Virus record (IMG/VR): IMGVR_UViG_3300025645_000055
Location: 9,386-73,385 of that record
Reading direction: 5' to 3' (one strand)
Source: a virus
DNA length: 64,000 nt
Positions within the stretch are counted from its first letter, which is position 1, and each line of letters begins with the position of its first letter. Both the position numbers and the translations under genes were made by a program. Below the pieces are notes generated by a model, which was not told the origin of the DNA, did no database searches, and saw only the letters and a program-made list of their open reading frames with translations. Shown in pieces: positions 1,913 to 26,200 of this stretch.

Positions 1913-3754
1913 ATGAGTACAGAAAACAATGGATTAATTTCAAGAGACAAAGGAATGTTCTCGAAAATGACACCCTTATTAAAAGTGATATTGGTGGTAG
2001 CAGTTTTAGCAATAGTAGGAGTGGCTGTTTGGTTTGCTGCACCTGGATTAAGGGTTTCGGCTTCTCAATCGTTAGATGAACTAACATTGGATGACACGAA
2101 ATTAGACAATCAATCAGATTCAAACTTGATTGTATTACCAACAACAAGACCTTCTAATAAGGTTCAAAGTACACCTCAAGTGACTATTGGAACTTATGCT
2201 TGGAATGGTTTAACACCTCTTGCGGCTGCAACTGGTGGTCCTTTTACAACAAAAGGTTCTTTAATGGAAACTAATGGTGTAAACTTAAGAATTGTACGTC
2301 AAGACTGGTTATCTGGTTTACGTGAAATGCAAATGAAGTTCATCGAACAATTTGATGCTGGACAAGAATTCCCAGACTCTGATAGAGCTGCAATGGGAAT
2401 TACAATAATGGGTGATGGAGCACCTTTCTATATCTCCACAATGCAAGGAGCATTAGATGCTAAGTTTGGTAAGGGTAAATATCATGTTGAAGTGGTAGGT
2501 GCATTTGGAATGTCAGATGGTGAAGATAAGGTGATTGGTCCACAAGAGTGGAAAACTAATCCTAAATCAATGATTGGGGCATTAATCTCAACAGTACCAG
2601 GTGATGGTGACTGGGTTACATTGTTAAACTATTGTTTTGCAAATGGACTTAAGGTTAATCCAGACTTTAATACTTATGATGCAGATGCAGTAAATATTTT
2701 TCCATCTAAGGATGATGATTACATCAACTCTGCGAAAGAGTTAATCGCTTCTCAAACAGAAGGATTTACAGTATCACTTAAAGTGGTTAAAGATGGTCAA
2801 CTTACTGGTGAAACAATTCAAAAAGAAATTGATGGTTGTGCAACTTGGACACCTGGAGATAAAATGGTGTTTGATGCATTGGTTGGATATACTGATATTG
2901 CATCAACAAGAGACTTCCCAAATCAAATGGCAACAACACTTATAGTTGTTAAAGAATGGGCATCTACACATCCAGAGATTGTTTCAAATATTCTTAAGTC
3001 GGCATTAACGGCTGCTAATCAAATCAAACAATATGATGAATGGGCAGTTAGAGGTTCAGAAGCTATTGAAGCAACTTTTAAAGTAGAAACACCACAATAC
3101 TGGTATGATATGTTTAAAGGTCAAACTGGAACTAAGAATGGTATTACATACAATATGGGTGGTACGAGAGTACTTAACTATGCAGATGTAATGCAATACT
3201 ACGGTATCACAGATGGTACTAATAGATATAAAGCAGTTTATAATCAAGTATCGGGTTACTTAGTAAACCTTAATCCTTTTGGATTTAACGAATCGGTTGA
3301 TGGTATTGTACCTTACGCAGATGCAGTTAACTTGTTCTACCTTAAGAACATCAATGATATTGATGCTGGTACAACAGTAGAGGTTGATTATACAACAACA
3401 AAAACAGAAGTATTAGCAGATGGAGATTGGTATATCAACTTCAACACTGGTAGTGCAGAGATATTAGGTTCATCTAATACAGACTTAGCTTCGATATATA
3501 ATTTGTTAGTTCAAGCAGAACAAACAAAGATATTAGTTAGTGGTCATACAGATAGTACTGGTAGTGCTAGTGTTAACTTCCCTCTTTCAGAGAGCAGAGC
3601 AAACTCTGTTGTTAACTACTTAGTTAAACGAGGTATCTCAAGAGATAGAATACAAGAAGTAAGTGGTAAAGGAGATTCTGAACCAATTGCATCTAATGGT
3701 ACGAATAGTGGTAGAGCGACTAATCGTAGAGTACAAGTAACATTTGTTCAATAA
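1913..3754 (+). CDS. ABC-type periplasmic substrate-binding domain fused to a C-terminal OmpA-like peptidoglycan-binding domain
   Basis: N-terminal TM; C-terminal INFNTGSA..GHTDSTG..NFPLSESRANSV..NRRVQV OmpA motifs; in an operon with an ABC permease and ATPase. Confidence 0.85.
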   Translation: MSTENNGLISRDKGMFSKMTPLLKVILVVAVLAIVGVAVWFAAPGLRVSASQSLDELTLDDTKLDNQSDSNLIVLPTTRPSNKVQSTPQVTIGTYAWNGLTPLAAATGGPFTTKGSLMETNGVNLRIVRQDWLSGLREMQMKFIEQFDAGQEFPDSDRAAMGITIMGDGAPFYISTMQGALDAKFGKGKYHVEVVGAFGMSDGEDKVIGPQEWKTNPKSMIGALISTVPGDGDWVTLLNYCFANGLKVNPDFNTYDADAVNIFPSKDDDYINSAKELIASQTEGFTVSLKVVKDGQLTGETIQKEIDGCATWTPGDKMVFDALVGYTDIASTRDFPNQMATTLIVVKEWASTHPEIVSNILKSALTAANQIKQYDEWAVRGSEAIEATFKVETPQYWYDMFKGQTGTKNGITYNMGGTRVLNYADVMQYYGITDGTNRYKAVYNQVSGYLVNLNPFGFNESVDGIVPYADAVNLFYLKNINDIDAGTTVEVDYTTTKTEVLADGDWYINFNTGSAEILGSSNTDLASIYNLLVQAEQTKILVSGHTDSTGSASVNFPLSESRANSVVNYLVKRGISRDRIQEVSGKGDSEPIASNGTNSGRATNRRVQVTFVQ

Positions 3755-3770
3755 GAACAAGTAACAAGTT

Positions 3771-3812
3771 AAAGGCAATCCCACTAAAAAACAAATCGGG
3801 GTTGCCTTTATT
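3771..3812 (+). terminator. Intrinsic terminator-like hairpin
   Basis: aaggcaatccc...ggggttgccttt followed by T-rich sequence. Confidence 0.65.
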
Positions 3813-3848
3813 TATTAAATAAATGAGTATAATTAATTAAAAACAATT

Positions 3849-4346
3849 ATGAGAAAAACAATTTTATTATTATTAGTGATGTTAATGTCCACAGTGGCAT
3901 TCTCACAAACGGAAGTAGAAACTACAGAAGTAGAAACTACAAAAACTAGCTTATGGAATCCTTACATCGCAGTAGGGTTATCTGTAACAGATTCAAATGA
4001 TTTTGATGCTACATCTTATGTATCGGCAGAGTTCGGTACTACTATGGATAACTTCTCAGTAGGGGTGGTATTTGGTCGTAATAACCTAGTAGACATTGGA
4101 AAAGATGAATCTTTTAAAGGTGAAAATGGTTATTGGACTGAACTTAAGATTGCAGCTTCAACCCCATTAGGGTTTGTTGATGGATATGCTTTAGTTGGTG
4201 TTGGAACATACTTTGATGGTGGTGGAACATTCCTTGAATATGGGGCTGGACTATCTAAAAATCTAGGACCAATTGATGTTTTTGTACAAGTATCAAATTG
4301 GGATGGCACGACATACGTGACACCTGGAATAAGTGTTTCATTATAA
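3849..4346 (+). CDS. Secreted small outer-membrane beta-barrel-like protein
   Basis: Bacteroidota-type signal peptide (..VAFSQ) and alternating amphipathic strands. Confidence 0.6.
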   Translation: MRKTILLLLVMLMSTVAFSQTEVETTEVETTKTSLWNPYIAVGLSVTDSNDFDATSYVSAEFGTTMDNFSVGVVFGRNNLVDIGKDESFKGENGYWTELKIAASTPLGFVDGYALVGVGTYFDGGGTFLEYGAGLSKNLGPIDVFVQVSNWDGTTYVTPGISVSL

Positions 4347-7507: not shown

Positions 7508-8338
7508 ATGCAATACGAATTAAAAGACACTATATTATATTTAGACAAAGTTGAGTTAGGATATGGTAGTGGTAAAAATTATAAAACAGTCCTTAAGGAT
7601 GTTAATATAGTTGAAAAAGATGTGGTTAGAGATGGTCATGTAACGGGTCAAGTGATTGCCGTTGTTGGAAGAAGTGGTAGGGGAAAGTCTACCCTATTTA
7701 AAGCCATGACTGGTCTTGTAAAACCTCATAGTGGGGAAGCATTGATTACTGAGTTGGATAGTCCAGAGGGTGATGATGCAAAGAATGTAGAAGAGGGTGA
7801 TGTAGGTTTTGTAGACCAGAAATATACCTTATTCAGACATAAGACAGTTGAACAAATATTTCGCTACGCACTTAGAAAAAGTGGATTAACCAAGGTTGAG
7901 AAAACTGAAAAGGTTAATCGATATTTAGGTGAGTGGGGATTAGAAAAACAACGTAAGCAATACCCGATTGAATTATCTGGTGGGCAAAGACAACGTACTG
8001 CAATCATTGAACAAATTCTTTCATCTGGACACTTTATGGTATTAGATGAACCGTTCTCTGGATTGGATGTTGGAAACATTAGAGATGTAAAAAGGTCTAT
8101 CGAATTAATTAAGAAAGACCACGAATTAAACACTATCATCTTCTCAACACATGAGTTAAGACTTGCAGTTGAATTGGCAGATAGTATATATGTAGTTGGT
8201 TACCCAGAGGGAACAACTGATTATGCGACAATCGTTAAACATTACGATTTAAAAGAAATGGGAATAGCTTGGACAGAGTATGGTCAAGCCCACATTGATT
8301 TAGTTGCAGATATTGATAATACAATGATGAATTCATAA
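7508..8338 (+). CDS. ABC transporter ATP-binding protein
   Basis: Walker A GRSGRGKST, signature LSGGQRQR, Walker B MVLDEPF, H-loop STH. Confidence 0.95.
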   Translation: MQYELKDTILYLDKVELGYGSGKNYKTVLKDVNIVEKDVVRDGHVTGQVIAVVGRSGRGKSTLFKAMTGLVKPHSGEALITELDSPEGDDAKNVEEGDVGFVDQKYTLFRHKTVEQIFRYALRKSGLTKVEKTEKVNRYLGEWGLEKQRKQYPIELSGGQRQRTAIIEQILSSGHFMVLDEPFSGLDVGNIRDVKRSIELIKKDHELNTIIFSTHELRLAVELADSIYVVGYPEGTTDYATIVKHYDLKEMGIAWTEYGQAHIDLVADIDNTMMNS

Positions 8339-9597: not shown

Positions 9598-10575
9598 ATG
9601 GGGTGCTTATACTCCAGTCTTCGGACAAGGATAGACCAGCAATGGTTTAAAGTAGTAGATTTAGTGTCTATTGCGTTGCATTAACCCTTCGGGGTTAGAC
9701 AATCCACGTAAGCATGATTACCAAACCGTATCAAGGGCATCTGCTGAGATACGAAACCCACAACTTATGGGGATTGAGTAGAAATACAATAGTAAGGTAG
9801 TTAGAATCAGATATCCTAAAAGGGGGTATTGTTTGACTAAACGGTGTAAAAGCTATTGGTTGGATTCATTAAGAAATTTTATGGGACTTATCTTCGGGTA
9901 ATAAGTGAAATGATTAACATGATGGTAAAACATTATATCGAGGCGTTGTATTCTTAACCACTCAAAAGGTGGCACGAATGTCAACCAGCAGACACGTCTT
10001 GAAACTTAGAGTGAGGCTTATACCAGAGTTAAATGGTGCATTTTTTTTTGATAAAAATAAAAAGAGAAAGTTCTGTTGGACTAGAACTGAAAATTAAGTT
10101 ATGCCGTTGAAATATATGGCTGGTTGATTCCTCTCAAGGGATGAGATTAAATTTGATGAGTACATGTCATAAGGAACGGGGTCGCACTCGTTTATTCTCG
10201 CAAGGAACCTGGGCAAAGAAAGCTAGATTATATAAGTTCTATGTAGCAGAGTTATGGTCACTCTAAGACCAACTTAATGTTATCTACTTGAAGGAAACTG
10301 ATAGTGTGTGAAAAAGCTGAAAGGCATATAAATGATAACGGGGGCAACCCACTTGCTGAACACTCAAGCATAAATCTGGGCGTACTACTTCAACTTGTTG
10401 GAGGGAGTGCAATAGGTTCAAATCCTTTTACGCCCACTAAATTATATTTCGAGAGTACTAGATAACAAATTCCAGTCGATGTACTCGTTAAGAACCTATC
10501 CGCAAGATAGGAATATACCCAAGAGTAATGGATTGTGAGGGAATTGTATAATTTAAACTAAGAATCTCATCATAT
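9598..10575 (+). ncRNA. Giant structured ncRNA, GOLLD-like
   Basis: About 980 nt with no ORF of 60 aa or more; UUCG/GNRA hairpins; long-range pairs 9603-10/9708-15, 9740-46/9986-92, 9699-9706/10529-36, 10140-48/10563-71; next to tRNAs and enclosing a tRNA-like element. Confidence 0.7.
10378..10436 (+). ncRNA. D-armless tRNA-like element, copy 1, inside the giant RNA
   Basis: gggcgta/tacgccc acceptor; agg-ttcaaat-cct T arm; one central hairpin. Confidence 0.65.
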
Positions 10576-11112: not shown

Positions 11113-11187
11113 CGAGAGGTAGCTCAGTTTGCTCAGAGCGTCACCCATTGGGGGTGGAGGTCGTTGGTTCGAATCCAACCCTCTCGA
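11113..11187 (+). tRNA. Atypical tRNA with a Pro-type acceptor (C1:G72, A73) and anticodon loop CATTGGG
   Basis: Full cloverleaf with TTCGAAT; A33; TTG at the canonical anticodon position; no D-loop GG. Confidence 0.7.
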
Positions 11188-11276
11188 CAAAAATTAAAAT
11201 AAATTAACAAAAAACGTAACTTTAATATAGTTACACATATTTAATAGAAAGGGATAAACCCTAAACAATAGAAATT

Positions 11277-11381
11277 ATGATGAATTATACGACAACATAT
11301 CAAAAGCAGTATCCGCAAGGGGGGAAACCTAGTGGGCTGGACTTGTCGTGTATTTACTCTAAAGGTAAAACAGGTGTGTAA
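11277..11381 (+). CDS. Putative attenuator leader peptide MMNYTTTYQKQYPQGGKPSGLDLSCIYSKGKTGV
   Basis: 34-codon ORF after an A-rich start context (gaaattatg), overlapping alternative stems upstream of a terminator. Confidence 0.75.
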   Translation: MMNYTTTYQKQYPQGGKPSGLDLSCIYSKGKTGV

Positions 11382-11408
11382 ATAAATCAATTACATAACT
11401 TAAACGGT

Positions 11409-11445
11409 AAGCTCAGCTATAAAGAAATTTAGTTGGGCTTTTTTC
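11409..11445 (+). terminator. Intrinsic terminator (attenuator) ahead of the tRNA array
   Basis: aagctcagcta...tagttgggctt plus T-tract; first tRNA starts 16 nt later. Confidence 0.85.
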
Positions 11446-11460
11446 ATGCCCAAATTTCAA

Positions 11461-11555
11461 CGGGTAATGTGCGAGTGGTTTAAGCAATCGGTCTTGGAAG
11501 CCGATGACAATTTCAAGAAGGTTATTGTCCGTAGGTTCGAATCCTACTTACCCGA
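11461..11555 (+). tRNA. tRNA-Pro(TGG) with a long variable arm (class II-like body)
   Basis: cgggtaa/ttacccg, loop CTTGGAA, variable stem gacaat/attgtc, T arm gtagg-ttcgaat-cctac. Confidence 0.8.
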
Positions 11556-11563
11556 CTAAACAT

Positions 11564-11636
11564 CGGGATGTATATCAATTGGTAGATTACGTGCTTTGGG
11601 AGTACGAGGTTGCTGGTTCGAGTCCAGTCATCCCGA
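11564..11636 (+). tRNA. tRNA-Pro(TGG)
   Basis: Canonical cloverleaf, loop TTTGGGA. Confidence 0.95.
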
Positions 11637-11643
11637 CAGAATG

Positions 11644-11662
11644 AAAGTTCATTGACATGTTG
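11644..11662 (+). promoter_or_regulatory. boxA-like antitermination element
   Basis: aaagttcattgacatgttg, resembling Bacteroidota rrn boxA as recalled. Confidence 0.55.
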
Positions 11663-11732
11663 GTTAAGTAAAATATAGAAGTCTAGGGAGCCATTGCTCT
11701 TAAAACGTCCAACCTAGAAACTTCTATAATAT

Positions 11733-11805
11733 TGGGATATGGTGTAATTGGTAACACGTCTGTTTTTGGTGCAGAAGAGTATGGGTTCGAGACCCGTTGT
11801 CCCAA
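11733..11805 (+). tRNA. tRNA-Gln(TTG)
   Basis: Cloverleaf, loop TTTTGGT, U1:A72. Confidence 0.9.
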
Positions 11806-11812
11806 CTAATAT

Positions 11813-11885
11813 TGCCCTATGGTATAACGGTTAATACGTCTGGTTTTGAACCAGAAGATTGGGGGTTCGAATCCGTCTAGGGTAA
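11813..11885 (+). tRNA. tRNA-Gln(TTG)
   Basis: Cloverleaf, loop TTTTGAA. Confidence 0.9.
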
Positions 11886-11958
11886 CAATAAAGATATTTG
11901 GGAGACTGTTATTAATTCATAGAACCTATTGCGAGTGGTATCATAGAATTAAAATTAT

Positions 11959-12031
11959 TGGGGTATGGTGTAATGTGTAACATTCAAGATTTTGGTCCTT
12001 GAGAGTGTCGGTTCGAGTCCGTCTACCCCAA
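11959..12031 (+). tRNA. tRNA-Gln(TTG)
   Basis: Cloverleaf, loop TTTTGGT. Confidence 0.9.
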
Positions 12032-12182
12032 CTATATTGTGTGCGTAACTAAGGTATTTAGGAGTATACATAACAAGTAGTTGACTTAGTACTATCAATG
12101 AAAAGTATGTGGAAAATGATACAGTTTGAACGGAATCCCATGTTGGGGAGAGATATGAGTGCAAGCCTCATCAATATAAATT

Positions 12183-12264
12183 GGGAGTATTGAGCAACTG
12201 GTTGCTCAGCAGACTGTAAATCTGTGGTCTTACGACATTGGGGGTTCGAATCCCTCTACTCCCA
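12183..12264 (+). tRNA. tRNA-Tyr(GTA)
   Basis: gcaga-CTGTAAA-tctgt; variable arm; TTCGAAT. Confidence 0.92.
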
Positions 12265-12269
12265 CAATT

Positions 12270-12350
12270 GGGAACTAAAAGCCATTCGGATATGGCATCG
12301 GGACTGTAAATCTCGTCCTTCGGGGAGTGGTTCGAGTCCACTAGGTCCCA
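12270..12350 (+). tRNA. tRNA-Tyr(GTA) with an atypical D arm
   Basis: cggga-CTGTAAA-tctcg; variable hairpin cc-ttcg-gg; T arm agtgg/ccact. Confidence 0.85.
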
Positions 12351-12423
12351 CAATTGGTCACAGATGAAACGACCAGTCTTCACAGAAAGACTTCCTCATG
12401 AGGGGATATAAATAAAGCTGCAT

Positions 12424-12493
12424 GGGTTGTGAAAGGATACTAGCCGAGGTTGTAACCCTCTAGCTTTGTAGGGTTCGAGTCCCTATCAGCCCA
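12424..12493 (+). tRNA. Degenerate or atypical tRNA-Tyr(GTA) with a reduced D arm
   Basis: gggttg/cagccc; gagg-TTGTAAC-cctc; taggg-ttcgagt-cccta. Confidence 0.6.
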
Positions 12494-12498
12494 CAACT

Positions 12499-12631
12499 TG
12501 ACTATAATTGGTCGGCAATGTTAATGTAGTGTTTGAGAGCAAACCGTATAATCTCGGCAAACCATCATTAATGAATGAGTTATGTATGTTACATCATAAC
12601 CTTTTGTGGGGTTCGACTCCCCAATGGTCAA
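12499..12631 (+). ncRNA. Expanded tRNA-like RNA (~133 nt)
   Basis: tgactat/atggtca acceptor; canonical T arm tgggg-ttcgact-cccca; two internal hairpins. Confidence 0.6.
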
Positions 12632-12667
12632 CACGCTAGGCTAGTAAGTGTCCAACACGCTAGGCTA
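12629..12667 (+). repeat. Direct repeat caacacgctaggcta, two copies
   Basis: Seen directly between tRNA genes. Confidence 0.7.
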
Positions 12668-12671
12668 ATAT

Positions 12672-12743
12672 TCCTTCGTAACTCAGAGGCAGAGTACCGT
12701 GCTTTTAACACGGGAGTCGTGATATCGTAATTCACCGAGGGAA
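12672..12743 (+). tRNA. tRNA-Lys(TTT) with an atypical T loop
   Basis: ccgtg-CTTTTAA-cacgg; T loop atcgtaa. Confidence 0.8.
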
Positions 12744-12822
12744 CAAAAATTAGTAGCATATGCTCGATGAACGACTATGTACATGTAAGTAGGGATACTA
12801 GTCATGTTACTAATTTTAATTT

Positions 12823-12895
12823 GCACCCGAAGCTCAAGTGGACGGGCTTCCCGCTTTTAACGGGAAGGTTACGGGTTCGAGGCCCGTGGGGTGCA
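12823..12895 (+). tRNA. tRNA-Lys(TTT)
   Basis: tcccg-CTTTTAA-cggga; T arm acggg/cccgt. Confidence 0.88.
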
Positions 12896-12900
12896 CAAAT

Positions 12901-12984
12901 GCGATGTTAGTGTAAGTCAAAGATTCTAGATTAAACACGCAACCCATAGGGGTTGAGATGGGGGTTCAAGTCCTTTGCATCGCT
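12901..12984 (+). ncRNA. Gly-acceptor tRNA-like RNA with an enlarged D loop and a 6-nt anticodon loop
   Basis: gcgatgt/gcatcgc plus U73; caacc-catagg-ggttg. Confidence 0.6.
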
Positions 12985-12989
12985 CAAAT

Positions 12990-13083
12990 GATAGTATAGT
13001 GAAATATTCTGTGTAGACGTACATATAAAAATCACACCTTCTGCTTAGGTTGGAATAATTGGTATGAAATCCAATTACTATCT
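12990..13083 (+). ncRNA. tRNA-like RNA with a D-loop hairpin insertion and a degenerate anticodon arm
   Basis: gatagta/tactatc; gtga/tcac enclosing tgtgta-gacg-tacata; T-like arm attgg/ccaat. Confidence 0.55.
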
Positions 13084-13088
13084 TAATT

Positions 13089-13159
13089 GCCGATATCGTA
13101 TAACGGTATTACGTGCCCTTGGTAGGGGTGAAATCTCAGCTCGTTTCTGAGTATCGGCT
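13089..13159 (+). tRNA. tRNA-Thr(GGT)
   Basis: gccgata/tatcggc; loop TTGGTAG; T loop ctcgttt. Confidence 0.85.
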
Positions 13160-13160
13160 C

Positions 13161-13316
13161 TAAGTTTATTAATAAGTGGGTAAAACCTTGAGGCATCCCC
13201 CTCGGACTATGACGGCTTATATTTGACGATATAAGTGTTCAAGTTTCTGGTCAAGCAATGCACCAGGTTTGGTGGAATCACCTTACAAAAGCGAGGATTA
13301 ATATTAATAGACTTAA
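13161..13316 (+). ncRNA. Unknown structured RNA (~155 nt) between tRNAs
   Basis: 13-bp closing stem taagtttattaat/attaatagactta enclosing GC-richer hairpins. Confidence 0.5.
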
Positions 13317-13318
13317 CT

Positions 13319-13401
13319 GCGAATATCGTATAATGGAGGGGAAACCCGTATTATAGTGGCCTTCCAAGTCACGGATGAGAGTTCGATTCTCTCTATTCGC
13401 T
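13319..13401 (+). tRNA. tRNA-Gly(TCC) with a GAAA hairpin in the D loop
   Basis: Loop CTTCCAA; U73; insert ggg-gaaa-ccc. Confidence 0.88.
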
Positions 13402-13409
13402 CAATAATT

Positions 13410-13496
13410 GCCTCTATAGCTCAGTTGGTTTGGCGAAAGCCTTAGAGCAGCCCCCTTTTAAGGGGCAGGTCGTAGGTTCGAATCCTACTGGGGGTA
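13410..13496 (+). tRNA. tRNA-Lys(TTT) with a GAAA hairpin in the D loop
   Basis: gcccc-CTTTTAA-ggggc; insert ggc-gaaa-gcc. Confidence 0.88.
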
Positions 13497-13555
13497 CTAA
13501 GTTAGTTATGACATTATGATTTGAGGCTTAATCATCCTCTTTAACTAACTTTATT

Positions 13556-13626
13556 GCGAGATGTAGCTTAATGGCAAAGCATCGGCCTTCCAAGTCGAGG
13601 ATGCGGTTCGACCCCGACATTTCGCA
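13556..13626 (+). tRNA. tRNA-Gly(TCC) with an 8-bp acceptor and short T stem
   Basis: gcgagatg/catttcgc; loop CTTCCAA; A73. Confidence 0.75.
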
Positions 13627-13634
13627 CTAAAAAT

Positions 13635-13720
13635 GCCCCCCTAGTATAATGGAGACGAAAGTCGTATTACCTTGGATTTGTAACCCAAAGATATCAGTTC
13701 GATTCTGATGGGGGGCTCCA
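13635..13720 (+). tRNA. tRNA-Thr(TGT) with a GAAA hairpin in the D loop; CCA encoded
   Basis: Loop TTTGTAA; insert gac-gaaa-gtc. Confidence 0.88.
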
Positions 13721-13725
13721 TACCA

Positions 13726-13810
13726 GCCGATGTCGCATAGTGGTCTATTGCACTTGATTTGTAATCAAGAGAAAGAAATTTCATCGTCAGTTCGAATCTG
13801 ACCATCGGCT
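13726..13810 (+). tRNA. tRNA-Thr(TGT) with a long variable arm
   Basis: cttga-TTTGTAA-tcaag; variable stem gaaa-gaaa-tttc. Confidence 0.88.
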
Positions 13811-13825
13811 CACATATTTATTAGT

Positions 13826-14287
13826 ATGAAAAACTTAATCAACAAAATCTGGGCGTTCATCAAACTAATGCTACCTAATAGCTGGTTTCCAGAAGACGTA
13901 ATAATTTACGCTATCGAAGATGATATGAAATCGTGGAAACTTATTGAAGTTCTCATTGTTAGAGAAATAAATAAGTATAGAATCGAAAATGGTCTTAAAC
14001 CAGTATCTGGTGAGTTAAACACCAAGCTAGAAACAAAGATAAGAAGCGACTTTATGTCGGATGAAGAAAAACTATCCCACGATGGTTTTGGTGTATCATC
14101 AAGAAGACTTAAAGATATGGGGTTTAAAAGTGTTGGTGAAATTATAGCCTATGGTTATACAAATGGTGGTGATGTGGTTCATGCTTGGAAAAATAGTCCA
14201 AGTCATAATCGTGTATTACTTGGAAATTATAAATACCTGGGTGTTAGTAAAACTGATAGATATTATTGTGTAATATTTACCAGATAA
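13826..14287 (+). CDS. CAP/SCP domain protein
   Basis: INKYRIENGL, LSHDGF, GEIIAYG, WKNSPSHNRVLL. Confidence 0.9.
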   Translation: MKNLINKIWAFIKLMLPNSWFPEDVIIYAIEDDMKSWKLIEVLIVREINKYRIENGLKPVSGELNTKLETKIRSDFMSDEEKLSHDGFGVSSRRLKDMGFKSVGEIIAYGYTNGGDVVHAWKNSPSHNRVLLGNYKYLGVSKTDRYYCVIFTR

Positions 14288-14289
14288 AT

Positions 14290-14400
14290 GCGAGTGTAGC
14301 TCAGTTGGTTAGAGCGTTATTTAAATCATGCGGGAGTAGCTCAATGGTAGAGCGATACGTTACCAACGTATAGGTTGAGGGTTCGAATCTGATTACTCGC
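14290..14400 (+). pseudogene. Chimeric tRNA: 5' fragment (14290-14317) plus a tRNA-Gly(ACC) body (14330-14400)
   Basis: atacg-TTACCAA-cgtat; the 3' end tactcgc pairs with the upstream gcgagtg, not with its own 5' end. Confidence 0.65.
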
Positions 14401-14406
14401 CAAATT

Positions 14407-21798: not shown

Positions 21799-22197
21799 AT
21801 GGCAAAGAAAAGGGTAATTAAAAAGGTAACACCTAAGAAACCAGCACCTAAAAAAAAGACGGTGGTGACAAAAAAGGCAGTACCTAAGAAAAGGGTTACA
21901 AAGAAAACTGTAACTAAAAAAAATGTAGTGGCGAAGAAGGTTGTTATTAAAAAGAAAACAACATCTTCACGTAGACCAGTTAAGAAAACTAGTGTAACAG
22001 AAGCTAAACACGATAAAGTACCAGTTAAAACGGTTAAGAAACCTAAAAACGTTAAAAACTTTGTTAAGATTAGTACCACATCCAAACATAGTAAGTTTGT
22101 TGATGCTGGTAAAAGAGTTCAAGCTGGTGAGTTACAATGGTCAAGATATGTGGTAGAGGGTAATGTCTCATATCACTATTATTTAATATTAAAATAA
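21799..22197 (+). CDS. Lys-rich, histone H1-like basic protein
   Basis: KK-rich repeats across the N-terminal ~90 aa. Confidence 0.6.
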   Translation: MAKKRVIKKVTPKKPAPKKKTVVTKKAVPKKRVTKKTVTKKNVVAKKVVIKKKTTSSRRPVKKTSVTEAKHDKVPVKTVKKPKNVKNFVKISTTSKHSKFVDAGKRVQAGELQWSRYVVEGNVSYHYYLILK

Positions 22198-22203
22198 AAG
22201 ATA

Positions 22204-22587
22204 ATGACAATTTTTGAAAAAATGTGTGCGGATTTCTTAGCGGCTTATAAGGCCAAAGAAATGGAAAAGAAAGATTTTTTAGGTTTCCTTAAATCGGAAA
22301 TTCTTAGAGAGGGTAAACCCACAGATGATGCTTATGTGATTCTTAAACTTAAATCTATGTTTAATAAATTAGAGGATTCTGATTCAATCACTGAAATGGA
22401 GTTTAATGTGTTTCATTCATATATTCCAAAACAAATGAGTGAAGAAGAATTAACTGTTATTATTGGTTTAGTGGTTCAAGAATCGTTAAACGCAAATATG
22501 GGTACAATCATGAAACATTTGATTAAAACATACCCAGGTCAATATGATGGTAAAATGGCATCAATAATTGCTAAAAAATTATTATAA
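22204..22587 (+). CDS. GatB/YqeY domain protein
   Basis: AYKAKE..LKSEI, YIPKQMSEEEL, MGTIMK, DGKMAS. Confidence 0.85.
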   Translation: MTIFEKMCADFLAAYKAKEMEKKDFLGFLKSEILREGKPTDDAYVILKLKSMFNKLEDSDSITEMEFNVFHSYIPKQMSEEELTVIIGLVVQESLNANMGTIMKHLIKTYPGQYDGKMASIIAKKLL

Positions 22588-22589
22588 AA

Positions 22590-22785
22590 AATAAGTCAGA
22601 GAACGTATCGCACTACGGTGAGAAACCTCCAGACATCACAGTTTAAGGTAGGAGACGAAAGTCGATTGCACTACCGAGGATGCAACTCAAACAGACCGAG
22701 GGGATGAACTGCCCGTTGAGGTCGGGTTAGAGGCAAATAGGTAAATGATACGATAAAGCAGAATTTGGGGTAAGCTCAACTTATT
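22590..22785 (+). ncRNA. rnpB: Minimal RNase P RNA (catalytic domain only)
   Basis: P1 aataagt/acttatt; P2 cgtatc/gatacg; P3 cac-tacg-gtg; P4 GAGAAA-CC(U)CCAGA pairs with CAGAA-UUUGGGG-UA with the bulged U; P5 catc/gatg. Confidence 0.8.
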
Positions 22786-22803: not shown

Positions 22804-23370
22804 ATGAATAGAGAAAAAATCTTTGATAACTTAGATAACTTACTTGCTAATAAGCATGGTAAGAATTTCATAAACCATCTAGTGATGGCTTATGTACCAG
22901 TGAATAAAGTTGATAAGGTTTTTATCAGACCACAGAAGGTTAAATTTAAATGTGCAATCATTGATGAACAATTAATATCTGTTAATGAAATACTTAAGGG
23001 TGTTACAGAAGATGCGTTTAAAGATGATGTATTCAAGTATCTTCACACAATGTTTGATACTAAAAGTGAACCAGAAACACCAATTAAGAAATTAATGGGT
23101 GATAAGAAGCTTGGTATCCAAGGTACTAAAACCGATACCTTTATGTCTATTGATGGTTATTTCCTTTTCTATGATTGGCTTTCAACTAAAATTATGTTGG
23201 GTGATAAACATATCACCTGGTTAATGAGAAAGGCTAAGGAAACCCTTACTGATAGCACTGGTAATAGGGTTAAAAAAGAGGTGGAGAAAAAAGAGGTTAG
23301 AGCAACCTTTGCCCTTGGTGACCTACCAGCACTACAAGCCCTTAAGGATAAATTAGATGGGAAAAAATAA
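22804..23370 (+). CDS. Hypothetical protein
   Basis: 188-aa ORF; C-terminal TFALGDLPALQALK. Confidence 0.75.
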   Translation: MNREKIFDNLDNLLANKHGKNFINHLVMAYVPVNKVDKVFIRPQKVKFKCAIIDEQLISVNEILKGVTEDAFKDDVFKYLHTMFDTKSEPETPIKKLMGDKKLGIQGTKTDTFMSIDGYFLFYDWLSTKIMLGDKHITWLMRKAKETLTDSTGNRVKKEVEKKEVRATFALGDLPALQALKDKLDGKK

Positions 23371-23553
23371 ACATGTTAAGAGTGGGTGGAATAAGGGTAA
23401 CTATTGTGGTTGCCACTATTGTACTGGTACTACTTATGAAGATTGGTTGGAGTTAAAACATAATCTAAAACCTAAACATAAAAATACTCTATAAATGTTT
23501 GCTTATTAAATATATTATACTTATCTTTGTCCTATAATTGTAAAACAATATAT

Positions 23554-24537
23554 ATGGATATTAAGAAAACAGTAAACCCAGAAGATTATAGTGTTGGTGT
23601 GATAGTTGCACGGTTTCAAACCCACGAATTACATGACCCACACAAAGAGATGATTGATATCGTCTGTGATAATCATAAAAAGGTACTTATTTTCCTTGGA
23701 ATATCTACAATTCCAAATACCAAAAGAAACCCATTAGATTTTGCCACTAGAATGGTGATGATACAAGAATATGCACCAAAAGCGGTGATTATACCAATTA
23801 AGGATAATCGTTCTAATTTAGTATGGAGTAAATATTTAGATTCACAAATATCATTAATATTTGGTGATGCTAATGTTAAACCATTACTATATGGTAGTAG
23901 AGATTCTTTTATCCCATTCTATGAGGGTAGATTTGATACTGCTGAATTAACAAGCGATGTTATGATTAGTGGTACTGAAATAAGAAATAACGTTTCCAAA
24001 GAAATCCTAATGTCTCAAGACTTCCGAGCTGGGGTTATACACGCAAATTACGCACAAAGAGCAGTATCATATCCAACGGTTGATGTTGTTGCATATAATG
24101 ATAAAGGTCAAATCTTAATGGCTAAGAAACCAAACGAAGACAAGTATAGATTTGTTGGTGGATTTGTTGACACAAGTGATAATAGACTTGAACATTCTGC
24201 TAGACGAGAGTTTATGGAAGAAACTGGTGGTAGTGGTGAAATAGGTGAATTAAAATATGTTTGTTCACAAGCCATTGATGATTGGAGATATAAGAAAGAA
24301 GACTCTGGTATTATGACCACACTCTTTATTGGTTATTTCAGATGGGGTTATGTAAGACCCTCAGATGATATTAGTGAACTTAAATGGATGGACTTCTCTA
24401 GATTCTTAGATATGGGTTATATTAAACATAATATGATGCCAGAACACGAAACCTTAATGATTACCCTTGTTAATAAAATTAAAGATGGTACATTAGGTAT
24501 TAAAACACTTGAAGAACAAAATACAGAAAAACTATAA
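23554..24537 (+). CDS. Bifunctional NMN adenylyltransferase / Nudix hydrolase (NadM-Nudix)
   Basis: VARFQTHELHDPH, RNPLDF, SGTEIR; Nudix box GGFVD..ARREFMEETG. Confidence 0.9.
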   Translation: MDIKKTVNPEDYSVGVIVARFQTHELHDPHKEMIDIVCDNHKKVLIFLGISTIPNTKRNPLDFATRMVMIQEYAPKAVIIPIKDNRSNLVWSKYLDSQISLIFGDANVKPLLYGSRDSFIPFYEGRFDTAELTSDVMISGTEIRNNVSKEILMSQDFRAGVIHANYAQRAVSYPTVDVVAYNDKGQILMAKKPNEDKYRFVGGFVDTSDNRLEHSARREFMEETGGSGEIGELKYVCSQAIDDWRYKKEDSGIMTTLFIGYFRWGYVRPSDDISELKWMDFSRFLDMGYIKHNMMPEHETLMITLVNKIKDGTLGIKTLEEQNTEKL

Positions 24538-24538
24538 T

Positions 24539-26200
24539 ATGGAAACATTAGAACTAAATAAACAAGGGGTTAAGACAGTTACCTTACCCAAGCGTAAGAT
24601 AGCAGACGTACCTAGACTATTATGGGCAGATGCCTATACTGCTGGGTCAAATAAGTTTCAATCGGCTAAAGCTAAACAAGAATCTGTTTACTATGTCACA
24701 TTCCGTAGACAACTATCTACTGTTAATCCACTCTTATATAATGTGGGTGATGATAGAATTATCTTCGGTGGTCTACAACGACTATTAGAGAAGATTTTCT
24801 ATGAACCAGTAACACATAAAGAGATTGATGATGCTAAGGAATTTCTTTCTACATTCAAAGCCACAACATTAGGTTATGCAGAATATGAGTTTCCAGAGGA
24901 AATGTGGAGAACAGTTGTAGACGAATATAACGGTAGACCACCAATCCTTATTAAAGGGATGCCAGAGGGTTCTGTTGTATATCCTAATGAACCAGTTGTA
25001 CAAGTTACATCAATGGTTGATGGTATGGGTGAATTAGCAGCTTGGTTTGAATCTACCATCCTTAAGGTATGGGCAGTTTCAGAACGTATCACACAGAACG
25101 AACATTGGATTACAAAACTTAAAGGTATGATTCATGGAATTGAACCAGATTTAGATGATGAATCTGTTCACTTTCAAGCATCACTTATGCTTACCGATTT
25201 CGGTGACAGAGGTGGTATAACACCAGAAGAATCAGAAGAATTAGGTATGGCTCACTTATATACGTTCCCAGGTACAGACACATGTTCTGGGGCATATCAA
25301 GCTTGGTATAATGCTAATAAAACACCAGTGGGTAGTAGTGTTAATGCACTTGCCCATAGAAACGTACAAGCATATAAATTAGAAAATGATGTTTATGAAG
25401 CGATTTATAACTCATGTAAAGATAACGAAATCATTTCGATGGTTGCCGATTGTTACGATTTCTACTATGCAGTAAGAGAATACTTATTACCACTAGCACT
25501 CCGTAGTATCAAAGAAGAAAATGGAAAGGTTGTAGTGGGTAGACCAGACTCTGGAAATGCAGTAGAACAAGTCCTATGGCTTTGTAGACTAGCTAAGAGA
25601 TATGGTTTATATACCACAAAGGTAATTGATGGTGTTGAGTGGTACTTCGGTACAACACTTAAGTTCATCGAGGGTGATGGAATGAAATATGATACAATGT
25701 GGGAAATCATTCAAGCATTAGAAAAAGAAGGATTTGCACCACACGGTTGGGGATTATTTGGCGTAGGTGGTGGACTAAGAAATGGTATCAAAAGAGATAA
25801 CCTTTCTGCTAAATACGCACTATGTTCAATGGGTTACGACCACGTTGGTGTTACAAAGTTCTCTGAAACACTAGGTAAAACTACTTTACCTGGACCTTTC
25901 AAAGTTTTAAGAAGTGCCGAAGCATTACATAATAAAGAAACCATAGTGTTTGATACTGAAAAAGGAGAAGATGCAATGGTGGTTTACTATGATGGTTCTA
26001 ATATATACAAACCATTTGGTGAGGGTCAAGATGATGACTTCTTAGTTATTAGAGCAAGGATTAGAGAACAGTGGGATAGTATGCCACTTAATCTAACATC
26101 TGATACTAATCATAATTATCCAGCTAGTAAAGCAATACTTGCAAAACGTATTGAATTACTTAAGGAATATGCACCTAATAAACACGCTAAAAACTACTAA
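24539..26200 (+). CDS. nadV: Nicotinamide phosphoribosyltransferase (Nampt/NadV)
   Basis: ADAY, DFGDRG, GTDT, VADCYD, RPDSG, EGDG, FGVGGGL. Confidence 0.9.
   Translation: METLELNKQGVKTVTLPKRKIADVPRLLWADAYTAGSNKFQSAKAKQESVYYVTFRRQLSTVNPLLYNVGDDRIIFGGLQRLLEKIFYEPVTHKEIDDAKEFLSTFKATTLGYAEYEFPEEMWRTVVDEYNGRPPILIKGMPEGSVVYPNEPVVQVTSMVDGMGELAAWFESTILKVWAVSERITQNEHWITKLKGMIHGIEPDLDDESVHFQASLMLTDFGDRGGITPEESEELGMAHLYTFPGTDTCSGAYQAWYNANKTPVGSSVNALAHRNVQAYKLENDVYEAIYNSCKDNEIISMVADCYDFYYAVREYLLPLALRSIKEENGKVVVGRPDSGNAVEQVLWLCRLAKRYGLYTTKVIDGVEWYFGTTLKFIEGDGMKYDTMWEIIQALEKEGFAPHGWGLFGVGGGLRNGIKRDNLSAKYALCSMGYDHVGVTKFSETLGKTTLPGPFKVLRSAEALHNKETIVFDTEKGEDAMVVYYDGSNIYKPFGEGQDDDFLVIRARIREQWDSMPLNLTSDTNHNYPASKAILAKRIELLKEYAPNKHAKNY

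What the first reader, a model, noticed from the sequence alone, without database searches (positions are those of the whole stretch)
22590..22785. Phage-encoded minimal (~195 nt) RNase P RNA with no specificity domain and a covaried P4
Seen: P1, P2, P3 and P5 helices plus the P4 pseudoknot. The bacterial consensus GAGGAAAGUCCGGG...ACAGAACCCGGCUUA appears as GAGAAACCUCCAGA...GCAGAAUUUGGGGUA, with compensatory changes and the bulged U kept. The region between the P5 strands is only a short stem (ggtag/ctacc) with a gac-gaaa-gtc hairpin. Established: the S-domain reads the tRNA T/D elbow. Inference: an elbow-blind ribozyme would suit the many elbow-altered tRNAs and tRNA-like RNAs at 9.3-14.4 kb.
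Basis: partly seen in the sequence, partly recalled or inferred. Interest (0 to 1): 0.82.

Follow-up and report, generated by a model that had tools for sequence, protein, structure and literature searches.

The report
Phage-encoded minimal RNase P ribozyme
A large freshwater phage carries a 196-nt, stripped-down version of the RNase P ribozyme that trims transfer RNAs, and it belongs to a family of about 110 such genes in phage contigs that I could not find described in print.

Summary
Window 22590-22785 (+) is an intergenic, 196-nt RNA with P1, P2, P3, the P4 pseudoknot with its bulged U, P5 and P15/16. Only a 41-nt stem stands where the specificity (S) domain should be.

Alone it fails Rfam (RNaseP_arch 7.7 bits, E=5). 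I found about 110 homologous loci in viral contigs.
- On 65 aligned members, 93.7% of structure cells pair against 67% in shuffles (0 of 500 reach it). P4 is 99.6% paired and 6 of its 8 pairs change on both sides.
- Bridging members hit RNaseP_bact_a at E=8e-24 (L305) and E=2e-12 (L246), with the S-domain block collapsed.
- Profiles built without the window find it as the only hit in 64 kb (E=7e-36 to 3e-19).
- 93 of 110 loci hold tRNA genes, and 1144 of 1145 of those are co-oriented with the RNA.
- Five large carrier genomes (four 100% complete) hold 31-62 tRNAs.
- 3 of 15 large carrier records encode an RnpA protein.

Best reading: a working phage RNase P RNA, derived from bacterial type A, for the phage's own pre-tRNAs. 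Nine literature searches found no prior description.

The parts
22590..22785 (+). Whole mini RNase P RNA gene (196 nt), P1 5' end to P1 3' end
   Evidence: sole hit of leave-out family profiles in the window
22590..22601 (+). P1 5' strand (1-7 and 10-12), pairs with 22775-22785
   Evidence: Inner 3 pairs 90.3% paired and all 3 covary on 65 sequences. Outer P1 is 80.6% paired on 18 sequences, with ragged alignment
22604..22609 (+). P2 5' strand, pairs with 22747-22752
   Evidence: 100% of cells paired, 6 of 6 pairs change on both sides
22611..22620 (+). P3 hairpin (CAC-UACG-GUG), the shortest P3 in the set
   Evidence: Base pairs 98.5% paired. The closing C-G is kept in 64 of 65 sequences
22620..22633 (+). 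CR-I and P4 5' strand GAGAAACCUCCAGA; bulged U at 22628
   Evidence: U39 and C40 are invariant in 65 of 65 sequences
22634..22637 (+). P5 5' strand CAUC, pairs with 22679-22682
   Evidence: 98.5% paired, 3 of 4 pairs covary
22638..22678 (+). Vestigial S-domain: P7-like stem 22647-22651/22671-22675 and GAAA hairpin 22654-22663, with a conserved junction
   Evidence: 92.2% paired on 18 sequences and 73.5% on 65 (register problems in MAFFT). Replaces about 140 model positions of RF00010 in relatives
22683..22693 (+). J5/15 GCAACUCAAAC
   Evidence: C94, A96, C99, A102, C103 and A104 are invariant. Aligned to GCAA..AAAUAG of RF00010 in L305
22694..22723 (+). P15 (GACC/GGUC) with P16 stem and L15/16 loop
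   Evidence: With P15 left free in the search, 100% paired and 3 of 4 pairs covary
22724..22746 (+). J15/2 with CR-IV-like UAGGUAAAUGA; no P18
   Evidence: P18-like hairpins are present only in larger members
22753..22771 (+). J2/4 and CR-V (GCAGAA), then P4 3' strand UUUGGGGU at 22764-22771
   Evidence: P4 is 99.6% paired and 6 of 8 pairs change on both sides; parse
11113..14401 (+). Phage tRNA array, the presumed substrates (15 by ARAGORN; 15 by Rfam's permissive scan, partly different)

Best explanation
The locus encodes a genuine RNase P RNA reduced to its catalytic domain plus a short vestigial S-stem. It descends from bacterial type A. It is transcribed with its + strand neighbours and folds around the P4 pseudoknot. 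Together with a small basic protein cofactor, it cleaves the 5' leaders from the phage's own many pre-tRNAs during infection. The cofactor would be the host's RnpA in most lineages, probably including this one, and a phage-encoded RnpA in one sub-clade.

Shown here: homology, structure, selection on pairing, linkage to tRNA arrays, and the presence of phage RnpA in some carriers.
Inferred: catalysis, the identity of the cofactor in this phage, and tRNA leaders as the substrate.
For: (1) Structure under selection. On 65 members, 93.7% of cells pair against 67.0% in shuffles (0 of 500), and the covariation score is 0.681 against 0.187 (0 of 500). P2 is 100% paired, P4 99.6%, P5 98.5% and P15 100%. 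P4 parsed member by member gives 17 of 19 at 8/8 pairs and 2 of 19 at 7/8.
(2) Homology to RNase P. L305 hits RF00010 at 82.6 bits, E=7.7e-24, over the full model 1-367. L246 gives 48.9 bits, E=2e-12. L318, L262 and L330 hit RNaseP_arch at E=1e-3 to 4.5e-2. The window aligns over the full RNaseP_arch model with CR-I and CR-V in register. It is tied to these members by profile E-values of 3e-19 to 7e-36.
(3) Core bases. The bases invariant in 65 of 65 sequences lie in CR-I (G33, A35, A36, U39, C40), J5/15, the P15 3' side, CR-IV and CR-V (C170, A174).
(4) Context. 93 of 110 family loci hold at least one tRNA gene in the fetched flank, and 62 of 110 hold one within 300 nt. 1144 of 1145 of these tRNAs are on the RNA's strand. 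Five of five large carrier genomes tested hold 31-62 tRNAs.
(5) Protein partner. PF00825 RnpA above the curated cut-off is found in 3 of 15 large carrier records. No full-size RF00010 match at E<=0.01 is found in 0 of 5 such genomes.
(6) Precedent. A C-domain alone can catalyse cleavage at reduced efficiency (PMC5839562, abstract in the search listing). [quoted passage not shown]
(7) Weak hint of expression. A 166-nt contig in a metatranscriptome run lies at 22604-22769, inside the RNA, with no mismatches.
Against: - The window RNA itself gets only 7.7 bits (E=5) from any Rfam RNase P model, and no family member reaches a gathering score.
- At E<=1, 4 of 8 loci (L270, L254, L343, L292) and 3 of 6 (L482, L001, L270) gave no RNase P hit at all.
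- The window's sub-clade departs from consensus at well-conserved core positions. It has GAGAAA instead of GAGGAA, GCAGAA instead of ACAGAA, and P4 pairs 2 and 3 are C-G where L305 and the RF00010 consensus have A-U and G-C.
- No RnpA is found in this 73-kb fragment, nor in 12 of the 15 large carrier records, 9 of which are at least 90% complete.
- No promoter or terminator signal above chance.
- Here the gene lies 8.2 kb from the tRNA array, not inside it.
- The metatranscriptome evidence is one contig. Three other RNA-library contigs lie on neighbouring ORFs, and DNA carry-over is not excluded.
- No activity was measured.
Confidence: 0.72

Rival explanations
1. An active ribozyme whose loss of the S-domain is adaptive because it no longer reads the tRNA elbow. 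This would let it mature non-canonical phage tRNAs or tRNA-like RNAs that the host enzyme handles poorly.
For: CR-II/CR-III and P8-P14 are absent. By my reading, 2 of 15 window tRNAs (12672-12744 and 13089-13160) lack a GTTCRA T-loop, and a few have odd D-loops. Three ARAGORN tRNAs were missed by Rfam's gathering scan.
Against: 13 of 15 window tRNAs have ordinary T-loops. Relatives with the same mini RNA sit among tRNAs scoring 55-76 bits. The S-remnant keeps invariant unpaired bases across the family, which argues that it still does something. The analogous type T remnant is modelled as contacting the elbow (PMC13462272, passages).
Confidence: 0.12
2. A non-catalytic decoy. The RNA keeps the protein-binding face of the C-domain, soaks up host RnpA, and so damps host tRNA maturation or redirects it.
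For: Most carriers lack their own RnpA (12 of 15). The window sub-clade has substitutions in CR-I and CR-V. A camelpox RNase-P-like RNA was discussed as a possible decoy, though it was inactive and had only a 20% effect (PMC3001073, passages).
Against: The bulged U, the following C, the CR-I adenines, the J5/15 adenines and CR-IV/CR-V are invariant in 65 of 65 sequences. That is more than protein binding alone should need. The genes sit inside co-oriented tRNA arrays. One sub-clade carries its own RnpA, which makes a decoy pointless there.
Confidence: 0.1
3. A decaying relic of a captured host rnpB gene, with no present function.
For: It is reduced and divergent, and it fails Rfam thresholds. 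In L315 and L363 the gene is interrupted by an endonuclease-like ORF.
Against: About 110 loci keep the same fold through hundreds of compensatory changes (629 cells changed on both sides). The length is tightly kept, with a median of 218 nt.
Confidence: 0.03
4. An unrelated structured RNA that resembles RNase P by chance.
For: Only the weak score of the window sequence alone.
Against: Family members hit RF00010 at E=7.7e-24 and 2e-12 across the full model. All C-domain helices and conserved regions occur in the canonical order.
Confidence: 0.01

Closest known systems
Bacterial type A RNase P RNA (Rfam RF00010)
   Same: Same C-domain: P1-P5, P15/16, the P4 pseudoknot with bulged U, CR-I, CR-IV and CR-V. 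It is the best Rfam hit of the least reduced members (L305 82.6 bits, L246 48.9 bits). A bacterial-type RnpA is encoded in 3 of 15 carrier records.
   Different: The S-domain block (about 140 model positions) is replaced by about 52 nt in L305 and 41 nt in the window. The window has no P18. No member reaches the gathering score of 100 bits. The gene is encoded by phages, and it is additional to a cell's own gene in the one cellular bin examined.
[quoted passage not shown]
   Same: About 200 nt. [quoted passage not shown] It is reported catalytically active (PMC7191817 and PMC13462272, passages).
   Different: Type T is archaeal, works with archaeal proteins (Pop5, Rpp30, Rpp29, L7Ae), and is reported only from archaea (PMC7191817, passage). 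The phage RNAs score best on the bacterial A and general archaeal models, and they co-occur with bacterial RnpA. The resemblance is therefore probably convergent. RF02357 itself never appeared as best-of-clan and was not tested separately.
Engineered C-domain-only E. coli RNase P RNA
   Same: Shows that a C-domain without the S-domain still cleaves, at reduced efficiency (PMC5839562, abstract in the search listing).
   Different: It is a laboratory construct. The phage RNAs are natural, conserved, and keep a short conserved S-stem.
Camelpox/orthopoxvirus RNase P-like RNA
   Same: A virus-encoded RNA with some resemblance to RNase P RNA (PMC3001073, passages).
   Different: It was reported inactive in pre-tRNA processing, comes from a eukaryotic virus, and is not linked to tRNA genes. 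Here there is strong covariation, a conserved catalytic core and tRNA-array context.

Membership tests
RNase P RNA (any type) | P4 long-range pseudoknot with a bulged U between CR-I and CR-V | tested here: met
   Window 8 of 8 pairs plus bulged U. 99.6% of cells paired, 6 of 8 pairs change on both sides, and U is invariant in 65 of 65 sequences
RNase P RNA (any type) | C-domain conserved regions CR-I, CR-IV and CR-V in canonical order with P1, P2, P3, P5 and P15 | tested here: met
   The window deviates at three consensus positions (GAGAAA, GCAGAA, P4 pairs 2-3)
RNase P RNA (any type) | Significant covariance-model match to a curated RNase P family | tested here: inconclusive
   Window alone: 7.7 bits, E=5. 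Relatives: E=7.7e-24 and 2e-12, but below gathering. 0 members reach gathering
RNase P RNA (any type) | Site-specific 5' cleavage of pre-tRNA | not testable with these tools
   Needs a bench assay
Bacterial type A (RF00010) | Full S-domain (P7-P14, CR-II, CR-III) and P18 | tested here: not met
   41 nt lie between the P5 strands and there is no P18 in the window. The S block is collapsed in the L305 alignment
Bacterial type A (RF00010) | Gathering score of 100 bits | tested here: not met
   Best family member 82.6 bits. 0 of 5 carrier genomes at E<=0.01. Own record: none
Bacterial RNase P holoenzyme | RnpA (PF00825) protein subunit available | tested here: inconclusive
   None in the 73-kb, about 20% complete record. 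3 of 15 large carrier records have one. Use of host RnpA was not tested
Archaeal type T (RF02357) | Archaeal lineage with archaeal protein subunits and a minimal S-stem | tested here: inconclusive
   The architecture is similar (PMC13462272, passages). RF02357 was never the best clan hit. Archaeal subunits were not searched for

The most novel reading that the evidence does not exclude
Large phages run their own tRNA-maturation enzyme: a roughly 200-nt RNase P ribozyme that evolved by shedding the S-domain, convergently with archaeal type T. In some lineages it is paired with a phage RnpA. This would make tRNA 5' processing independent of the host, possibly while host RNA metabolism is shut down. 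The variable S-stem would serve as a platform for new substrate-recognition modules; one member even nests a tRNA-like element there.
Probability: 0.3. Interest if true: 0.9.

Novelty: new variant of a known kind. Interest (0 to 1): 0.82.

Why it matters
RNase P is a textbook ribozyme, and I know of no functional RNase P RNA reported from any virus (from memory; my searches found only the inactive camelpox RNA). A minimal, S-domain-less form was reported only from one archaeal order (PMC7191817, passage).

A natural, widespread phage family of about 200-nt bacterial-type RNase P RNAs would matter in several ways:
- It would add tRNA 5' processing to the translation-related functions that large phages carry.
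- It would give a second, independent natural experiment on how little RNA RNase P needs.
- It would offer small, diverse scaffolds for structural and engineering work.
- It would explain why these genes are missed: standard annotation at gathering thresholds finds none of them.

Tried and rejected
- **Single-sequence folding:** the + strand gave z=-1.28 and the - strand z=-0.36. Neither is informative, because the pseudoknot cannot be drawn.
- **Rfam on the window alone and on L001:** nothing significant.
- **Patterns:** too loose. One search gave 1 new true member, and one search gave none that the profile recognised.
- **Pattern for the window's sub-clade:** 7 of 8 hits were unrelated sequences. 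I therefore did not assume that long patterns give only true hits, and checked one search's loci with the profile (76 of 76). In one search, 1 of 12 (L578) was false.
- **Genome-contig scan:** Among the 122 loci newly on hand (the 120 stretches of that scan plus the two RnpA loci L368 and L369; L482) is a full member and two gave only short weak hits.
- **Promoter/terminator scan:** 2 promoter-like sites against 4.0 expected, and 0 terminators.
- **Synteny:** the YqeY-like ORF is in 3 of 110 family loci and the 188-aa ORF in 2 of 110, kilobases from the RNA. RnpA is in 0 of 110 local flanks. So no dedicated neighbour exists.
- **S-remnant length regex:** it matched only 18 of 110 loci and mis-registered, so I discarded it. 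Lengths are taken from the pattern gaps instead.
- **Read laying:** parts without cover say nothing.
- **Rows dropped before counts:**
  - A1 used 18 of the 27 hits. Left out were L247 (identical to L246) and L064, L253, L281, L332, L363, L315, L364 and L366 (partial, interrupted or doubtful).
  - A2 used 17 of those 18 (L330 dropped as cut by its contig end), plus L482, plus 47 of the 76 new loci (only near-full-length, non-identical profile hits).
- **Supplements of papers are closed.** The huge-phage paper PMC7162821 may list RNA genes there that I could not see.

Full report
**1. The observation.**
The stretch 22590-22785 lies in a 216-nt gap between two + strand ORFs, 22204-22587 and 22804-23370. 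The RNA ends I derived independently from P1 pairing are exactly 22590 and 22785. With RNA position 1 = 22590, the structure is as follows:
- P1: 1-7/190-196 and 10-12/186-188
- P2: 15-20/158-163
- P3: 22-24/29-31, capped by UACG
- CR-I GAGAAACCUCCAGA at 31-44; its P4 strand (36-38 and 40-44, U39 bulged) pairs with UUUGGGGU at 175-182, which follows GCAGAA
- P5: 45-48/90-93
- a 41-nt insert between the P5 strands, made of a GGUAG/CUACC stem and a GAC-GAAA-GUC hairpin
- J5/15: GCAACUCAAAC
- P15: 105-108/131-134, with P16 at 111-113/123-125
- a CR-IV-like UAGGUAAAUGA, with no P18

**2. The sequence alone is not convincing.**
Rfam at gathering thresholds finds only 14 tRNAs in the window. A permissive scan of 401 nt gives RNaseP_arch at 7.7 bits, E=5. 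That alignment does span the whole model 1-288 and puts CR-I and CR-V in register. The MFE fold is unremarkable (z=-1.28).

**3. Relatives.**
The window is part of a 73-kb IMG/VR virus record that CheckV rates about 20% complete. Its large ORFs hit phage protein families at E values down to 2e-144.
- The only blastn hit in 50,697 phage records fell exactly on the 3' half of the RNA, in the 634,780-bp uncultured phage LR745206.1.
- Pattern scans of viral contigs followed by nhmmer screening gave about 25 homologs.
- A scan anchored on CR-I and J5/15, leaving P15 free, gave 81 stretches. All 76 new loci on hand matched the family profile. Their median length is 218 nt, range 196-285.
- The same anchors with a 150-180 nt gap gave 12 stretches, of which 11 are members with an expanded apical hairpin.
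- A scan for the window's own sub-clade gave 7 false hits among 8. The window's nearest kin in hand are L292, L001 and L085.
- In all, 110 of 110 collected family loci match the final profile.

**4. Structure under selection.**
On 18 sequences (alignment A1), 46 pairs are 91.9% paired against 65.4% in shuffles, with 0 of 500 shuffles reaching the observed value on all five measures. Slid partners give 31-38%.

On 65 sequences (alignment A2), 38 pairs are 93.7% paired against 67.0% (0 of 500). The covariation score is 0.681 against 0.187 (0 of 500), and slid partners give 30-40%. One measure, the number of pairs with a change on both sides, was reached by 123 of 500 shuffles.

| Helix (A2) | Cells paired | Pairs changing on both sides |
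|---|---|---|
| P2 | 100% | 6 of 6 |
| P4 | 99.6% | 6 of 8 (the other two are invariant A-U and C-G) |
| P5 | 98.5% | 3 of 4 |
| P15 | 100% | 3 of 4 |
| P3 base | 98.5% | 2 of 3 |
| P16 | 93.5% | 2 of 3 |
| inner P1 | 90.3% | 3 of 3 |
| P7-like stem | 73.5% | 4 of 5 |

- P15 was invariant in A1 only because my search pattern fixed it. It was not fixed by the pattern for the 47 rows added in A2.
- The P7-like stem was 92.2% paired on A1. On A2, MAFFT visibly shifts sub-groups.
- Parsed one by one, P4 is 8/8 in 17 of 19 members and 7/8 in 2.
- The second P4 pair is A-U in L305, G-C in most members, and C-G in the window's group. That is a true double compensatory change.

**5. It is RNase P RNA.**
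- L305 hits RNaseP_bact_a at 82.6 bits, E=7.7e-24, over model positions 1-367. Its alignment shows GAGGAAAGUC, GCAA..AAACAG, CGGGU, UAG..GAAUG and ACCGAAUCCCGCUUAC in place. The S-domain block of about 140 model positions is matched by about 52 nt.
- L246 gives 48.9 bits, E=2e-12.
- L318, L262 and L330 hit RNaseP_arch at E=9.7e-4, 6.7e-3 and 0.02-0.045.
- Against this: 4 of 8 loci and 3 of 6 gave no RNase P hit at E<=1. No member reaches a gathering score, including 0 of the 12 long-insert loci. RF00010 finds nothing at E<=0.01 in five large carrier genomes.
- The window is tied to the scoring members by leave-out profiles. It is the sole hit in 64 kb at E=7.4e-36, 5.1e-29 and 3.2e-19.
- The bases invariant in 65 of 65 sequences lie in CR-I (including the bulged U and the next C), the first P5 pair, J5/15, the 3' side of P15, CR-IV and CR-V.

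**6. What remains of the S-domain.**
CR-II/CR-III and P8-P14 are absent. The remnant is not a neutral linker, though. Its junction bases (GGAG at 62-65, CG at 74-75, AC at 81-82) are invariant or at least 90% conserved in one or both alignments. The junction is kept when the hairpin above it grows from about 10 nt to 100-120 nt. P18-like hairpins occur only in larger members. From memory, P18 docks on the S-domain's P8 in bacteria, so losing both together would make sense. A 2026 paper models the type T remnant as one stem bearing a single T-loop that still stacks on the tRNA elbow (PMC13462272, passages). The window's UUGCA at 77-81 could be such a loop, but this is only my inference.

**7. 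Context.**
- 93 of 110 family loci hold at least one tRNA gene within the fetched flank, 72 within 1 kb and 62 within 300 nt. 1144 of 1145 of those tRNAs are on the RNA's strand.
- Five of five large carrier genomes tested (four of them 100% complete) hold 31, 53, 57, 61 and 62 tRNA matches.
- In the window, the gene is 8.2 kb downstream of a co-oriented array of 15 ARAGORN tRNAs.
- None of the 15 encodes a 3' CCA, by my reading.
- A bacterial-type RnpA (PF00825, 46-49 bits against a cut-off of 22.3) is encoded in 3 of 15 large carrier records. These are the L001, L085 and L270 genomes, which form one sub-clade.
- The LR745206.1 RnpA ORF contains KRAVDRNRIKRLMRE. From memory, that fits the RNR motif of RnpA.
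- Twelve of the 15 records, 9 of them at least 90% complete, have no RnpA. That includes the genome of L292, the window's nearest relative.
- The 3.7-Mb cellular bin that holds member L482 has its own full-size RNase P RNA (225.9 bits) on another contig. The mini gene there is therefore an extra copy.
- No neighbouring protein gene is conserved with the RNA.

**8. Expression.**
Two freshwater metatranscriptome runs held 8-10% of the sampled words. When laid on the locus, run X12 has a 166-nt contig without mismatch at 22604-22769, inside the RNA, and another at 23750-23902. Run X11 has contigs at 22132-22324 and 23555-23726. These are contigs, not reads, and DNA may be present in such libraries. 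This is a weak hint only.

**9. Mechanism.**
The most likely account is as follows. The RNA is transcribed with its + strand neighbours, since no promoter or terminator stands out. It folds into the RNase P catalytic core. It binds a small basic RnpA protein, which would be the host's in this phage and a phage copy in one sub-clade. It then removes 5' leaders from the phage's abundant pre-tRNAs.
- Shown: homology, fold, purifying selection, tRNA linkage, and RnpA in some carriers.
- Inferred: catalysis, cofactor choice and substrate.
- Rivals, each treated in its own section: an adaptively elbow-independent enzyme (0.12), an RnpA decoy (0.10), a relic (0.03) and chance (0.01).

**10. Comparison and novelty.**
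By ancestry the closest family is bacterial type A. By architecture it is archaeal type T, which is stated to occur only in archaea (PMC7191817, passage). The likeness to type T is probably convergent. A virus-encoded RNase-P-like RNA is known from camelpox, but it was inactive (PMC3001073, passages).

Nine full-text searches found no paper describing a phage-encoded RNase P RNA. The 2020 huge-phage paper shows 0 occurrences of 'RNase P' or 'ribonuclease P' in its main text (search listing). Subscription journals and supplements were not searchable, so prior description cannot be excluded.

I rate it a new variant of a known kind, with interest 0.82.

Noticed in passing
window 9938-10370 (+): A GOLLD-like large RNA (RF02032: 57.1 bits, E=2.9e-13, full model, below the gathering score of 150). 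It lies in an ORF-free stretch (about 9.1-11.1 kb) just upstream of the tRNA array. Family locus L579 also has a GOLLD RNA (203 bits), about 2 kb from its mini RNase P RNA.
   Followed up: partly
window 11113-14401 (+): The tRNA array has redundant anticodons (Gln x4, Gly x3, Pro, Tyr, Lys and Thr x2 each). No 3' CCA is encoded in any of the 15. Two genes (12672-12744 and 13089-13160) lack a GTTCRA T-loop. One Pro gene is 96 nt long. Rfam and ARAGORN disagree on several.
   Followed up: partly
L315 about 2580-3554 (-) and L363: The mini RNase P RNA gene is split right after the P4 5' strand by an insert of about 610 nt. The insert is almost entirely an ORF with a GIY-YIG-like N-terminus (the motif name is from memory). 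It replaces the P5 5' strand of the relative L357. There is no room for a group I intron core. L315 lies in a 436-kb, 100% complete genome with 57 tRNAs.
   Followed up: partly
L572 7540-7718 (-): A family member whose expanded S-stem hairpin contains a tRNA-like element (Rfam tRNA 42.8 bits at 7589-7668). In other words, a tRNA-like fold is nested inside an RNase P RNA.
   Followed up: no
L368 1465-1812 (+); also L369 and L490: Phage-encoded RnpA homologs (PF00825, 46-49 bits) in three huge-phage genomes that also carry the mini RNA. They are not adjacent to it.
   Followed up: partly
L366 about 3811-4008 (-): A family member that seems to lack the P1-P3 5' part and begins directly after a tRNA gene.
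   Followed up: no
window 22204-22587, 23527-26200: The flanks are a YqeY/GatB-tail-like ORF (PF09424, E=2.7e-13), a NUDIX plus cytidylyltransferase-like ORF, and a nicotinamide phosphoribosyltransferase-like ORF (NAD salvage). In L507 the YqeY-like ORF and the 188-aa ORF are neighbours with a gap of about 400 nt between them, which I did not examine.
   Followed up: no
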